DNA of 64,000 bases from Armatimonadota bacterium (GTDB lineage Bacteria > Armatimonadota > SYMT01): assembly GCA_046292385.1 (NCBI GenBank), contig JBKBRF010000023.1, forward strand, positions 32,001 to 96,000. The letters run 5' to 3'. The notes beneath the pieces were generated by a model, which saw only the letters and a program-made list of their open reading frames with translations, was not told where the DNA came from and did no database searches. Shown in pieces: positions 2,683 through 57,269 of this stretch; positions within the stretch are counted from its first letter, which is position 1, and each line of letters starts with the position of its first letter. The position numbers and the translations under genes were made by a program.

Positions 2683-2870
2683 GGAACCCGAGGCGTCCGG
2701 AGGCGCAGCCGGAGCGTGAGACGCTTGTCCCCCGCACGGGGGAGCCGCGGAGGGTAAACGCCGGGTGAGGGCCGACACCCGGCATCAGGGGGCGCAGGGG
2801 TCGGACTCGCGATAACGGTACACCACCGTGAGAGACGGCAACCGACCTCGGCCGAAGGGCACGGGGTCGG
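2683..2870 (+). ncRNA. Structured element family, copy A (short or internally deleted form)
   Basis: Shares GGAACCCG..GCGTCCGGAGGCGC, GGAGCGTGA, GCTTGTCCCCCG..CGGGGG, GAGGGCCG and GGGGTCGG with copy B, and the 3' motif CGT.AGA.ACGGCAACC with copy E. Confidence 0.65.
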
Positions 2871-20767: not shown

Positions 20768-20890
20768 GGGGTTTCCGGGAGAGAGCTCGCTGGGCCGGCA
20801 AACGGCCGCACCCGTTCACTCTCCACCCCCGGACCGCAGGGCTCCTCCCTGCGGCTTCAGAACCCCGCCACAGACGTACACGCCACCGCC

Positions 20891-21250
20891 GGAACCCGGG
20901 CGTCCGGAGGCGCTGCCGCAGGCAGAGCCGGAGGGCGGCATTTGTGACCACCCGTTGGCGGAGGGGTGGTCGCTCGAAGGTTTACCACCCGTACGGGTGG
21001 GTCGGGAATCAGCCCGTGAGCTCCGCTCCTGTGGGGGTAGGGCGGAGTGGCGCGGGAAGAGCCTATCGGAGCGCACTCCCGGAGCGGCCCGCTAACGGAG
21101 CGAAGCGGAGTGTGAAAGGCTTGTCCCCCGAACGGGGGGGGCCGGCGGAGGGCCCACGTCGCGGGAGGGCTGATTCCCGACACAAGGGCGCGGGGTCGGG
21201 GCGACGGTCTCGAGGCCGGTCACCGGAAGAAGGGCGAGACTTACGACCCG
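20891..21250 (+). ncRNA. Structured element family, copy B
   Basis: Perfect 15-bp long-range helix 21001-21015/21167-21181, hairpins CTGCC-GCA-GGCAG and GACCACCC..GGGTGGTC, and close similarity to copy D. Confidence 0.75.
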
Positions 21251-28730: not shown

Positions 28731-29039
28731 GGGTAAAGGCAACTCCTGGCGAGATCGTCATCTCACCGGGGTTCCACCCCCCGCCCTCCCCGAACGGAGC
28801 GGCCCTCCCGCGTGATCGGCCCTCCCGCAGTCCTTTCACGCTCCGGCTTCGCCTTCGCTAGCGGACTGCTCCGGGCGTGCGCCCCGGCAGGCCGCGCTCC
28901 GCGACCGAGAGCTGCGTCGCAAACCGTCACTGCGAATCACGGGCCGCGCCGTCCGGCTCAAGCGAGGCCCCCGCGCTTGGGGCCTCACAAGGGGACCCCT
29001 CCGCCTCCGCCTCCGGGCTCCGCAGGTACCCACGCGCGG
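28731..29039 (-). ncRNA. Structured element family, copy C
   Basis: Colinear with copy E (GCGGAGCCCG, CCCCTTGTGA, GCTTGAGCCGG, GCCCGTGA, CACGCGGGAGGGCCGCTCC, GGGGTGGAAC..GGTGAGATG). 16-bp helix 28790-28805/28941-28956. Confidence 0.75.
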
Positions 29040-29090
29040 CGACCGCGGCGCAATCATCGCGTGACGAGTAGAGTCCCCCGGCAGGGAATA

Positions 29091-29129
29091 CAAAACGGCC
29101 CCGGATCGCAGCTCTCGATCCGGGGCCGT
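29091..29129 (-). terminator. Rho-independent terminator downstream of the Gfo/Idh/MocA gene
   Basis: 14-bp stem ACGGCCCCGGATCG/CGATCCGGGGCCGT followed by TTTG on the minus strand. Confidence 0.7.
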
Positions 29130-29147
29130 GCTGTCGGTTCGGGAGCT

Positions 29148-29223
29148 CCAGGTTAGCAAGTTGCGGGTTCCGAACCCCGCCTATCGTGGAGCCAACCTGT
29201 AACCTGCCAACTTGCTAACCTGG
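29148..29223. repeat. 16-bp perfect inverted repeat of CAGGTT-type units
   Basis: CCAGGTTAGCAAGTTG / CAACTTGCTAACCTGG. Similar units at 18520-18595 and 44444-44466. Confidence 0.75.
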
Positions 29224-37426: not shown

Positions 37427-37764
37427 CGTGTCGGCCAACGCACCGCAGCTTGCCCCTGGCTCACGTTTCTTGCCGATGTGCCGCGTCAGCACCGCGGCTC
37501 CGACCCCGCGCCCTTGTGCCAGGAAGCAGCCCTCCCGCGACGACGGTCCTCCGCGCCCTTTTCACACTCCGCTGCGCTCCGTTAGCAGGGCGCTGCGGGA
37601 GTGCATCCCATCAGGCTCTGCCCGCGCCAACAACCGGGGCTCCAATCAGAGGCTCGGTTCACGGGCTGCCTCCTGGCCCTTCGAGCGAACCCCCCTGCGC
37701 CCAGGGGGGTTCACAGGTGCCGTCCTCCGCCGCAGCCTGCGGCTGCACCTCCGGACGCCTCGGA
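37427..37764 (-). ncRNA. Structured element family, copy D
   Basis: Colinear with copy B (GCTAACGGAGCG.AGCGGAGTGTGAAA, GTCGCGGGAGGGCTG, CACAAGGGCGCGGGGTCGG). 15-bp helix 37518-37532/37663-37677. Confidence 0.75.
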
Positions 37765-37813
37765 AACATGGTGGTCACCGACTAGGAGACCCCTTTCGGG
37801 AATCGCAGGTACA

Positions 37814-38200
37814 CGCGCGATGGCTACCAGCGGAGCCCGTAGGTTCTGCCGTAGGCAGAGCCGGAGGGTTCCCCTTGTGACCACCCCTGGCGAGGGGTGG
37901 TTGCTTGAGCCGGGGGGAGCGGCCCGTGAATCGCCGCGATGGTGCAGTCGCCGTGACCGATCGCGGCCCACAGCGGGACGGGGAGCACGCCCGGACCAGC
38001 CCGTTAGCCCGAAGGGCGTGGGAGGGCTGAGGGAGGGCCACTCACGCGGGAGGGCCGCTCCCCCCGGTGGGGGCACGGGGTGGAACTGCGGTGAGATGTC
38101 TTGCCCGAAAAGTGGCGGAAGGCCTCCTGCTCGGGAGGCTGGGCCCACAGACGGGGAACGGTGCACGTGGGAGCTGTCACGATCGTAAGACACGGCAACC
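37814..38200 (+). ncRNA. Structured element family, copy E
   Basis: Perfect 16-bp helix 37910-37925/38052-38067, colinear with copy C, ending in CGTAAGACACGGCAACC. Confidence 0.75.
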
Positions 38201-57090: not shown

Positions 57091-57142
57091 CGCCCGCGAG
57101 TAAACTCGGGGCTACTGAGAGCGAAGCCCGCCTGCGCGGGCT
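57091..57142 (+). repeat. REP-like bipartite palindrome
   Basis: ...GGCTACTGAGAGCGAAGCCCGCCTGCGCGGGCT. Confidence 0.8.
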
Positions 57143-57269
57143 GTCGAACCCGGTACTCGGAGCGCCTCGCCCGTTCCCATCAGGTTCCCTTCGCGTCTTT
57201 CGCCATCTTCGCGCCTTCGCGTTCGTTCGGAGCTACCCCCCGGCGAGGCTTCGCCCGTATACTGCTGTG

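What the first reader, a model, noticed from the sequence alone, without database searches (positions are those of the whole stretch)
20891..21250. Multicopy family of large structured non-coding elements with strong covariation (five copies in 64 kb)
Seen: five intergenic loci share colinear blocks: A 2683-2870(+), B 20891-21250(+), C 28731-29039(-), D 37427-37764(-), E 37814-38200(+). The blocks are CC/CGKAGG, TGTGA-hairpin-GCTYGA, GCCCGTGA, GCAC.CCC, GYTA, GGAGYGTG, GCGGGAGGGCYG and GGGGT(C/G)G. Sequences diverge but pairing is kept. Long-range helix: B GTCGGGAATCAGCCC/GGGCTGATTCCCGAC (15/15); D GCCAGGAGGCAGCCC/GGGCTGCTTCCTGGC (one G-U); E CCGGGGGGAGCGGCCC/GGGCCGCTCCCCCCGG (16/16); C CCGGACGGCGCGGCCC/GGGCCGCTCCGTTCGG (one G-U, one mismatch). 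Hairpin after TGT: GACCACCC/GGGTGGTC (B), GAACCCCCC/GGGGGGTTC (D), GAGGCCCC/GGGGCCTC (C). CACTCC/GGAGTG (B, D) becomes CACGCCC/GGGCGTG (E). G-U pairs favour the strands assigned. There are two subfamilies (A/B/D and C/E). Inference: a functional large RNA (ribozyme-like or RNP scaffold) or a non-autonomous element folding as RNA/ssDNA and spreading in trans. No RT, transposase or nuclease gene is adjacent. From memory only and unverified, the ends resemble msr-msd regions of myxobacterial-type retrons. I do not recognise it as a known Rfam family.
Basis: partly seen in the sequence, partly recalled or inferred. Interest (0 to 1): 0.88.

Follow-up and report, generated by a model that had tools for sequence, protein, structure and literature searches.

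The report
Abundant two-type folded intergenic repeat family
A roughly 300-base non-coding element that keeps an elaborate fold through matched base changes is scattered about 134 times between the genes of one uncultured soil or hot-spring bacterium, often as head-to-head pairs of two distinct types, and matches no catalogued RNA or mobile element.

Summary
The window holds four full copies (B, C, D, E) and one degenerate fragment (A). The whole 7.04-Mb genome holds 134 near-full copies and 22 partial hits. Mean identity is 68%.

A multi-helix fold is kept by compensatory changes within the genome and across three genera.

Rfam 15 gives no match. Copies show no orientation bias towards genes. 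No neighbouring gene recurs. The genome has no RVT_1 or TnpB hit.

Copy number among relatives is 134, 15, 8 or 0. Composite units have been copied into unrelated sites. Orthologous sites lack the element.

There are two types, alpha and beta. All 27 adjacent pairs are head-to-head alpha/beta.

Best reading: a large, structured, REP/BIME-like, non-autonomous mobile repeat whose folded single strand is the selected form. A multicopy functional RNA family is not excluded. The retron idea is not supported. This scan had noted two copies on another piece of this genome (e1-1434673).

The parts
20890..21231 (+). Copy B, alpha type, full length. It carries two small extra hairpin inserts, at about 20980-21001 and 21120-21140.
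   Evidence: R1 match at 203.5 bits, E=4.1e-50, model positions 1-301. nhmmer hit at window 20895-21229. Typed alpha. The inserts were read against the other copies in alignment A2.
20901..20937 (+). P1, the 5' hairpin of B. It has three stacked stems separated by a GGA/GGA 3x3 internal loop and capped by a 3-nt loop (GCA in B, GGA in the consensus).
   Evidence: Helix columns 14-16:44-46, 20-22:38-40 and 24-28:32-36. Covarying pairs are 12:52 (CG 30, AU 25) and 29:39 (UA, AU, CG). The region is only 71-82% paired because short-5' copies lack it. The loop description is my own reading.
20947..20970 (+). P2, the hairpin that follows the conserved TGTGA.
   Evidence: 98.5% of cells are paired and 4 of 7 pairs change on both sides. 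MI pairs 61:78, 59:80, 58:81 and 60:79.
20971..20975 (+). P3, 5' strand (CGCTC). It pairs with 21186-21190 and closes the core domain.
   Evidence: 97.9% paired. Pair 110:354 shows CG 33, UA 14, AU 9. There is a conserved U-G at 113:351. MI pair 82:259.
21002..21016 (+). P4, 5' strand (GTCGGGAATCAGCCC). It pairs with 21167-21181.
   Evidence: 12 pairs, 97% canonical, 9 of them covarying, on the HMM alignment of 134 copies. 90.6% paired with 12 of 15 pairs changed on both sides across genera. On the MAFFT alignment A2 with B-derived columns only 48% pair, which I read as a register slip of that alignment.
21053..21143 (+). Central core of B. It holds P5 (21053-21057 with 21077-21081), P6a (21086-21090 with 21118-21119 and 21141-21143), P6b (21095-21096 with 21110-21111), the conserved GCTAAC and GTGAAAGG blocks, and an inserted GC hairpin at 21120-21140.
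   Evidence: P5 87% paired, P6a 97-100% paired, P6b 98% paired, each with covarying pairs.
21144..21200 (+). Conserved 3' blocks of B: GGAGGGCC, CGCGGGAGGGC, the P4 and P3 3' strands, and GGGGTCGG.
   Evidence: These are invariant or nearly invariant columns in A2 and in the HMM consensus. The blocks are also kept in genera G005 and G006.
28742..29030 (-). Copy C, beta type, full length. It lies after the terminator-like hairpin of the upstream minus-strand gene and converges on a CAP-domain gene.
   Evidence: R1 match at 178.6 bits. Typed beta. Flanks were read. Neighbour annotation.
37468..37768 (-). Copy D, alpha type. It is the left arm of a head-to-head pair.
   Evidence: R1 match at 248 bits. 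The pair is listed with a gap of 58. Typed alpha.
37823..38115 (+). Copy E, beta type. It is the right arm of the D/E pair. The pair sits between an ABC-ATPase gene and an NMT1-like binding-protein gene, both on the minus strand.
   Evidence: R1 match at 217.3 bits. All 27 pairs are alpha plus beta. Neighbour annotation.
2683..2870 (+). Locus A, a degenerate, internally deleted fragment. The start of the 5' hairpin is joined to 3' core blocks, and it holds a small GC hairpin.
   Evidence: R1 reports only 2683-2725, at 12.9 bits and E=0.025. nhmmer does not report it at E<=1e-3. Sequence was read and aligned.

Best explanation
This is a lineage-restricted family of about 300-nt interspersed intergenic elements. 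Their sense strand folds into a conserved multi-helix structure: a 5' hairpin with GGA loops, a hairpin after TGTGA, and a core domain closed by two long-range helices that holds invariant unpaired blocks.

The family behaves as a non-autonomous mobile repeat. It amplified within each genome, either as single units or as head-to-head dimers of two distinct types (alpha and beta). These units landed between unrelated genes in either orientation.

I infer that an enzyme acting in trans recognises the folded single strand, either ssDNA as in REP/RAYT and IS200/IS605 ends, or an RNA copy. That would explain why selection preserves the fold rather than the sequence. It works like a much larger and more elaborate version of the REP/BIME elements of enterobacteria.

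Shown: copy number, fold, strand asymmetry, lack of linkage to genes, patchy distribution, copied composite units.

Inferred: mobility by a single-strand intermediate and the existence of a trans-acting enzyme. The enzyme is not identified.
For: Copy number and identity:
- 134 near-full copies plus 22 partial hits in 7.04 Mb, about 0.53% of the genome.
- Mean identity 68%.

Fold:
- Covariation within the genome and across three genera.
- In the helices, G-U 314 against A-C 66.
- Sense-strand MFE -143.7 against -121 kcal/mol for the antisense strand.

No link to genes:
- The downstream gene is co-oriented in 65 cases and convergent in 69.
- Inside co-directional gene pairs, 21 copies are sense and 18 antisense.
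- No sigma-70-like promoter or intrinsic terminator was found at B or at D/E.
- Neighbours are unrelated housekeeping and other genes.
- The largest paralogue group among 301 neighbouring proteins has 7 members.

Mobility-like pattern:
- In the same GTDB family, counts are 134 (G000), 15 (G005), 8 (G006) and 0 in G001, G002 and G004. None was found in 144 other genomes of the phylum.
- In a tree, copies group by genome.
- Two young subfamilies have 19 and 15 copies at >=88% identity.
- In 12 loci, a composite alpha/beta unit of about 780 bp has sharp ends and unrelated flanks.
- A G005 pair between pfkB and NIF3 faces a 151-nt empty spacer between the G000 orthologues.
- Metagenome contig L110 has a copy where the G000 orthologous spacer has none.
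- Eight copies sit in and beside a prophage.

BIME-like features:
- 27 of 27 adjacent pairs are inverted and alpha/beta.
- Copies are mixed with other repeat families. Some of those families flank Y1-transposase genes in this genome.
Against: - No mobilising gene was found. The five Y1_Tnp loci are flanked by other repeat families, not by this one. Y1_Tnp also occurs in relatives that lack the element.
- No target-site duplication or clear terminal inverted repeat was seen at subfamily ends.
- No identical or nearly identical copies exist. The maximum identity is 96.9%, and 95 of 134 copies have no relative at >=88%. Recent activity is therefore not shown.
- Old copies whose nearest neighbour is under 80% identical still keep 93% canonical pairs. 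Paired columns diverge half as fast as unpaired ones, 8.6% against 17.4%. This looks like constraint on each resident copy, which a purely selfish element does not predict.
- No strain-level insertion polymorphism could be examined. The other runs hold only short contigs of nearly the same strain.
Confidence: 0.45

Rival explanations
1. A multicopy family of functional non-coding RNA genes. Each copy, or each divergent alpha/beta pair, is transcribed, and the RNA acts in trans. It could be a protein sponge or scaffold that displays many GGA/GGAGG motifs in loops, or a ribozyme-like RNP. The family grew by duplication, and each copy is kept by host-level selection.
For: - Constraint on resident copies: 93-98% canonical pairs whatever the copy's age, and 110 of 126 double changes are compensatory.
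- Conserved G-U pairs and strand asymmetry.
- Invariant unpaired blocks are kept across genera.
- The head-to-head heterotypic pair recurs in two genera.
- Repeated GGA/GGA internal loops in P1 and P6 (my reading).
Against: - No promoter-like or terminator-like signal at B or D/E. Similarity between unrelated copies starts at the element's first base, so no shared upstream promoter exists.
- Pair gaps of 13-19 nt leave no room for two promoters.
- Copy number ranges from 0 to 134 among genomes of one family, and orthologous sites are empty.
- Small foreign hairpins are tolerated inside the core at varying places.
Confidence: 0.3
2. Orphan guide-RNA-like elements of an RNA-guided mobile system, such as IscB/IsrB omega-RNA (HEARO), TnpB reRNA or IS110 bridge RNA. 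On this reading the protein gene is lost, unassembled or supplied in trans.
For: - Size, multi-helix fold, long-range helices, multicopy dispersal and mobility resemble HEARO/omega-RNA. That resemblance is recalled, not tested.
- Two IS110-type transposase genes exist in the genome.
Against: - No Rfam match, including at E<=5 on four loci.
- No TnpB zinc-ribbon match.
- No RRXRR match, though that search rang in no control genome and so is inconclusive.
- No copy lies beside the IS110 genes, by the hit lists.
- No neighbouring gene recurs.
Confidence: 0.06
3. A chromosomal single-strand DNA signal used by the host, for example a priming or primosome-assembly site, a recombination site or a structuring site. 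It would fold when the strand is exposed. Inverted alpha/beta pairs would serve both strands, as ssiA and ssiB do in RSF1010 oriV (recalled).
For: - Strand-specific fold without transcription signals.
- Inverted heterotypic pairs.
- 52 of 80 unpaired copies have the sense strand on the locally C-rich strand, Fisher p=0.013.
- 8 of 8 copies in and around the prophage share one strand.
Against: - The skew bias is weak. It is also opposite to what the lagging-strand template would give, by my reasoning.
- GC skew on draft contigs correlates with gene strand (r=0.41).
- Relatives with 0-15 copies manage without it.
- Conserved G-U positions fit RNA better than DNA.
Confidence: 0.07
4. A cis-acting mRNA element: a leader or riboswitch, or a 3' stabiliser or attenuator of the neighbouring gene.
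For: - Intergenic position.
- Locus A and copy D lie just upstream of a co-oriented start codon.
Against: - No orientation preference: 65 co-oriented against 69 convergent.
- B and C point at the 3' ends of convergent genes.
- Neighbours share no function.
Confidence: 0.03
5. Retron-type msr-msd regions or another reverse-transcriptase-dependent retroelement.
For:
- RVT_1 genes exist in G005, G006 and G001.
Against: - No RVT_1 match in G000, which is 98.45% complete and holds 134 copies.
- No RT next to any copy examined.
- G001 has an RT but no element.
Confidence: 0.02

Closest known systems
REP / BIME / REPIN elements with RAYT (Y1, IS200/IS605-like) transposases of proteobacteria (features recalled from general knowledge)
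   Same: - Hundreds of intergenic copies, in either orientation relative to genes.
- Stem structure kept by compensatory change.
- Distinct unit types (Y and Z in E. coli) that combine in inverted orientation with specific linkers.
- Mosaic arrangement with other motifs.
- Copy number varies widely between related genomes.
- The genome carries Y1-transposase genes flanked by repeat families.
   Different: - The unit is about 300 nt, with at least six helices, two long-range closing helices and invariant unpaired blocks. REP is a single hairpin of 20-40 nt.
- The arms of a pair are only 62.5% alike, so they cannot form a REPIN-type hairpin with each other.
- No Y1 gene is flanked by this element.
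- No GTAG-type end motif was identified.
HEARO RNA (omega-RNA of IscB/IsrB, Rfam RF02033) and other large orphan bacterial RNAs (OLE, GOLLD, ROOL, raiA) (recalled)
   Same: - Large and GC-rich, with a covariation-supported multi-helix fold.
- HEARO is multicopy, mobile and often lacks its ORF.
   Different: - No Rfam match.
- No associated ORF at any of the sites examined.
- Copy number is far higher than for OLE, GOLLD, ROOL or raiA.
- Two paired types.
MITEs and IS200/IS605-derived PATEs (recalled)
   Same: - Non-autonomous and intergenic.
- Amplified in bursts (subfamilies of 19 and 15 copies).
- Present or absent at orthologous sites.
   Different: - No terminal inverted repeats or target duplications were seen.
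- Copies are far more diverged (68%), yet the structure is intact.
- No parent IS with matching ends is in the genome.
Integron attC sites (recalled)
   Same: Structure rather than sequence is conserved, and the fold is strand-specific and single-stranded.
   Different: - attC sites are 57-141 nt simple hairpins that follow cassettes in one array beside intI.
- Here the copies are dispersed over more than 50 contigs, in both orientations, with a branched fold.

Membership tests
Any Rfam 15 family | Covariance-model match at the gathering score, or at least a low E-value | tested here: not met
   The whole window at gathering score gave only a CRISPR-DR28 hit elsewhere. Four loci with copies, searched at E<=5, gave no hit on the element.
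Retron msr-msd | An adjacent or genomic retron reverse transcriptase | tested here: not met
   No RVT_1 match in G000. No RT among the neighbours.
Retron msr-msd | a1/a2 inverted repeats, a branching G and msDNA production | not testable with these tools
   This needs an msDNA preparation. No such anatomy was sought once the RT test failed.
REP/BIME-RAYT | Short (20-40 nt) imperfect palindrome unit with a conserved 5' tetranucleotide | tested here: not met
   The unit is about 300 nt with a branched fold.
REP/BIME-RAYT | A cognate Y1 (RAYT) gene flanked by the repeats | tested here: not met
   The five Y1_Tnp loci are flanked by other repeat families.
REP/BIME-RAYT | Distinct unit types combined in inverted orientation, intergenic, with many copies | tested here: met
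   27 of 27 pairs are inverted and alpha/beta. There are 134 copies, 14 of which overlap a crude gene call by more than 60 nt.
IscB/TnpB omega-RNA or reRNA | Physical linkage of at least some copies to an IscB, IsrB or TnpB gene | tested here: not met
   No PF07282 match. No PF14239 match, but the controls were silent, so that half is inconclusive. No recurrent neighbour.
IS110 bridge RNA | Location in the non-coding end directly upstream of an IS110 recombinase gene | tested here: not met
   Two IS110 genes lie at C91:683-1144 and C6:74659-75102. No element hit lies near them in the hit list.
MITE | Terminal inverted repeats and target-site duplication | tested here: inconclusive
   None is evident at the ends of two subfamilies. 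Ends were defined only by loss of similarity among 9 and 12 copies.
Riboswitch or cis-regulatory leader | Constant orientation upstream of functionally related genes | tested here: not met
   65 co-oriented against 69 convergent. Neighbours are unrelated.

The most novel reading that the evidence does not exclude
The elements are genes for a new class of large structured RNA that comes in two paralogous forms, alpha and beta. The two forms are transcribed divergently from head-to-head pairs and work together, for example as a heterodimeric RNP or ribozyme, or as an RNA-level replicator. Each of more than 100 copies per genome is kept by selection. No known large bacterial RNA has such a copy number or organisation.
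Probability: 0.25. Interest if true: 0.88.

Novelty: new variant of a known kind. Interest (0 to 1): 0.68.

Why it matters
If the main reading holds, bacterial interspersed repeats are not limited to short hairpins. Here a 300-nt branched fold, comparable in complexity to a riboswitch or small ribozyme, has been amplified more than 100-fold and has kept its structure at 68% identity. That implies a recognition machinery, still unknown, that reads a complex single-strand fold.

The strict head-to-head pairing of two types is a clear, testable rule without a known mechanism.

The family offers hundreds of natural sequence variants of one fold for structure work. It also gives a handle for finding the partner enzyme in a little-studied phylum. 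Earlier notes of this scan call that phylum Armatimonadota, which I did not verify.

If the copies are instead RNA genes, this would be a new large RNA class with unprecedented copy number.

Tried and rejected
- **Rfam.** The gathering-score scan of the window and the E<=5 scan of four loci gave nothing on the element.
- **BLAST-level DNA search of 40 relatives**. It gave one 49-nt hit at E=4e-4 in G004. That hit did not match the family HMM, and the CM found nothing in G004.
- **Exact-pattern scan of genome contigs**. It returned 3 stretches, all chance, with 0 HMM matches. The tool says the own genome may be left out of this scan.
- **Metagenome pattern scan**. Of 25 stretches, only 4 matched R1.
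- **Expression.** No RNA holder was listed.
- **Read laying on four DNA runs**. These gave only short contigs, mostly of nearly the same strain. No usable joint lay across an element, so there is nothing on insertion polymorphism.
- **Association with another roughly 70-nt repeat family.** Only 15 of 114 hits lie within 300 nt of a copy, so I rejected it as a systematic link.
- **Local hopping.** The nearest relative is on the same contig for 11 of 134 copies, against 5.0 +/- 2.5 expected. This is a weak excess. The prophage copies are not each other's closest kin.
- **Positional orthology of copies between G000 and G005/G006.** No clear case was found.
- **L105 against G000 contig C43.** The synteny is unclear.
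- **Literature.** Four searches gave no paper on such an element in this phylum. I saw listings and abstract openings only and read no paper.
- **Helix P4 on the MAFFT alignment A2.** It counted only 48% paired. I attribute this to a register slip: sliding by -1 gives 56% paired for the whole structure, the HMM alignment gives 97% and the CM alignment gives 90.6%.
- **PF14239 search.** It was uninformative because its controls did not ring.
Full report
**Observation**

A covariance model built later from 58 genomic copies (R1) finds four full-length matches in the window:
- 20890-21231(+)
- 28742-29030(-)
- 37468-37768(-)
- 37823-38115(+)

At locus A it finds only a 43-nt remnant, at E=0.025. 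By reading, A joins the start of the 5' hairpin to 3' core blocks, so it is a degenerate, internally deleted fragment.

**Size of the family**

The window is G000:C23:32001-96000, in a 7.04-Mb, 69% G+C draft genome of 91 contigs that is 98.45% complete.

| Search | Result |
|---|---|
| BLAST with B | 69 matches |
| nhmmer, first round | 147 hits |
| nhmmer, second round | 156 hits |

Of the 156 hits, 134 span more than 200 of the 306 model columns and 22 are partial. The 134 copies cover 37.4 kb, 0.53% of the genome. Mean pairwise identity is 67.8%, with a range of 48.6-96.9%, and only 1.1% of pairs exceed 90%. At >=88% identity there are two young groups of 19 and 15 copies, and 95 copies stand alone.

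**Fold**

After APC correction, the strongest mutual-information column pairs are Watson-Crick covarying pairs. Examples are 61:78 (AT 81, CG 25, GC 16), 82:259 (CG 80, AT 25, TA 24) and 98:243 (AT 60, TA 31, GC 31). They assemble into these helices:

| Helix | HMM columns | Note |
|---|---|---|
| P1 | 14-46 | 5' hairpin in three parts |
| P2 | 58-66:73-81 | follows the invariant TGTGA |
| P3 | 82-86:255-259 | long-range closing helix |
| P4 | 94-105:236-247 | long-range closing helix, 97% canonical |
| P5 | 144-148:168-172 | |
| P6 | 177-181:209-213 and 186-187:201-202 | |

Invariant, mostly unpaired blocks lie between the helices: GCCCGTGA, GCGCGGGAA, CCCGG, GCTAGC/GCTAAC, GTGAAAGG, GGAGGGCC, CGCGGGAGGGC and GGGGTSGG.

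By my reading of the consensus, P1 and P6 each present a symmetric GGA/GGA internal loop. P1 is also capped by GGA.

In the helices G-U (314) outnumbers A-C (66). The sense strand of B folds 23 kcal/mol better than its complement. Both strands beat shuffled sequences, with z-scores of -3.1 and -3.9.

Among 62 independent closest pairs of copies:
- paired columns differ at 8.6% of sites, against 17.4% for unpaired core columns;
- double changes at paired positions number 126, against 19.7 expected;
- 110 of the 126 double changes keep the pair.

The same alpha/beta differences are compensated in P5 (199:219, AU 29 and CG 24) and in P6b (237:275, GC 30 and AU 25).

On that MAFFT alignment P4 counted only 48% paired, using columns taken from B. 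I read this as a register slip, because the HMM and CM alignments give 97% and 90.6%.

**Not a known RNA**

Rfam 15 gives nothing on the element at gathering score or at E<=5 on four loci.

**Context**

A crude GC3-based gene caller (74% of the genome called as coding) puts 120 of 134 copies between genes.
- The downstream gene is co-oriented in 65 cases and convergent in 69.
- Among unpaired copies inside co-directional gene pairs, 21 are sense and 18 antisense.
- No sigma-70-like promoter or intrinsic terminator is predicted at B or at D/E.
- Similarity between copies from different sites begins at the element's first bases, so no upstream promoter is shared.

Neighbouring genes have no common theme.
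- In the window they include an amine oxidase-like flavoprotein, a PQQ-propeller/metallophosphatase protein, YggU, a CAP-domain protein, an NMT1-like binding protein and an ABC ATPase.
- On contig C8 they include CTP synthase, SMC, class II aldolase and MsrB.
- In relatives they include a PQQ dehydrogenase, DUF1592/DUF1552, pfkB, NIF3, a sulfatase and type I-E cas genes.
- Among 301 proteins within 1.5 kb of a copy, the largest paralogue group has 7 members.

Searches for mobilising genes in the genome gave:
- no RVT_1 match;
- no TnpB zinc-ribbon match;
- two IS110 genes that are not near copies;
- five Y1_Tnp loci, whose flanks are other repeat families.

**Two types and a pairing rule**

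Signature columns split the copies into 70 alpha, 58 beta and 6 mixed.

Twenty-seven pairs of copies lie within 300 nt of each other. All 27 are minus-then-plus, that is 5' end to 5' end, and all 27 combine one alpha with one beta.

The arms of a pair are less alike (62.5%) than random copies (67.8%). The pairs fall into 12-14 lineages at 85-88% identity, or 3 lineages at 80%.

One lineage of 12 loci is a composite of about 780 bp with sharp ends and unrelated flanks. Its short-5' alpha arm carries other hairpins in place of P1.

**Distribution**

- R1 finds full-length matches in 2 of 6 other genomes of the same GTDB family, and in none of 144 other genomes sampled from the phylum.
- With 150 candidates scored per genome, G005 has 15 matches, G006 has 8, and G001, G002 and G004 have none.
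- G003 (69% complete) and G007 had none, but only 11 candidates were scored for each.
- Four metagenome contigs also carry a copy.

On the cross-genus alignment 91.4% of cells pair, against 38-51% when partners are slid. Twenty-three pairs change on both sides, against 6-9 in the slid controls, and 0 of 500 shuffles reach the observed values.

In a FastTree of 86 distinct copies, the copies group by genome and the alpha/beta split lies inside the G000 group. In G005 each of the four head-to-head pairs joins members of different clades (my reading of the tree). G005 and G006 also have tandem arrangements.

**Signs of gain and loss**

- The G005 pair between pfkB and NIF3 (an 1137-nt spacer) faces adjacent G000 orthologues, 66% and 71% identical, that are separated by 151 nt on a contig without any copy.
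- Metagenome contig L110 has a copy upstream of a gene whose G000 orthologue has a 340-nt spacer without one.
- Contig C40 carries a prophage (terminase, portal, capsid, head and tail completion proteins, a Rad52-like protein). Eight copies lie in and beside it, all on the minus strand. They are only 72-85% identical to their nearest relatives. Eight of eight on one strand has a two-sided p of 0.008.
- Small GC hairpins of another family sit inside some copies at different places.

**Interpretation**

The following features are those of a non-autonomous mobile repeat:
- orientation that is neutral with respect to genes;
- no transcription signals;
- no linked gene;
- copy number from 0 to 134 within one bacterial family;
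- grouping of copies by genome;
- copied composite units;
- empty orthologous sites.

The strand-specific fold, kept by compensation, says that a folded single strand is what selection sees. The nearest known logic is REP/BIME with RAYT: unit types that combine in inverted orientation, mosaics with other motifs, and hundreds of intergenic copies (recalled knowledge). The unit here is ten times larger and branched, and no cognate enzyme gene was found.

Several findings argue against a purely selfish element. Old copies remain well folded: 93% canonical pairs when the nearest relative is under 80% identical. Ninety-five copies have no close relative. The alpha/beta rule is kept in two genera. 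These findings keep alive the rival that the copies, or the pairs, are functional RNA genes.

The retron reading fails on the absence of any RT in the genome with the most copies.

Whether the molecule that matters is RNA or ssDNA is not settled. No RNA run was listed. The DNA runs that were laid held only short contigs of nearly the same strain.

**Earlier notes of this scan**

Note e1-1434673 described two copies on another piece of this genome as an undescribed structured RNA and 'not a jumping element'. The fold agrees with what I find. The genome-wide count and the gain/loss evidence here speak against the second half of that reading. Those notes also name the phylum (Armatimonadota), which I did not verify.

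Noticed in passing
G000 contig C40:17000-40000 (outside the window; loci L084, L085): A prophage-like block with terminase, SPP1-type portal, capsid, head and tail completion proteins and a Rad52-like recombinase. Copies of the element lie between its late genes, all antisense to them.
   Followed up: partly
G000 C22:55627-55965, C51:25920-26261, C83:9901-10122, C40:62344-62622, C5:163128-163307: Five Y1_Tnp (IS200/RAYT-like) loci. Each is flanked by its own short repeat family with dozens of copies genome-wide, and several of those copies sit at contig ends. The genome appears to hold several REP/RAYT-like systems.
   Followed up: partly
window 21120-21140 and 2724-2745; also inside copies on C2, C10, C40 and C60: A small GC hairpin (GTCCCCC-loop-GGGGG type) occurs about 87 times in the genome and is inserted at different positions inside some copies. 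It looks like a separate miniature repeat nested in the larger one.
   Followed up: partly
window 57120-57143 (+): A lone match to Rfam CRISPR-DR28 just at the gathering score (35.4 against 35 bits) between two plus-strand genes. It is a single GC hairpin rather than an array, so it is probably a chance or REP-like hairpin.
   Followed up: no
G005 C3:829000-840000 (locus L078): Four copies lie inside a type I-E CRISPR-cas locus. Two are between cas6e and cas1, and two are beyond the stretch after cas2 that may hold the array. All four are on the strand of the cas genes.
   Followed up: no
window 29085-29135 (-): A strong hairpin followed by TTTTG after the minus-strand gene that ends at 29181. 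It looks like an intrinsic terminator and lies directly upstream of copy C.
   Followed up: no
5' flank of about 9 beta copies, for example G000 C2:5050-5103 and C35:24988-25045; weakly at window 29040-29100 (-): An extra hairpin module of about 55 nt (ACTACTCACCG...GAGAATCT...AGATTCTC...) precedes one beta subfamily. It reappears inverted at the far end of the 780-bp composite pair unit.
   Followed up: partly
whole genome, 80 unpaired copies: In 52 of 80 unpaired copies the sense strand lies on the locally C-rich strand (10-kb flanks; Fisher p=0.013). This is a weak bias of unclear meaning on draft contigs.
   Followed up: partly
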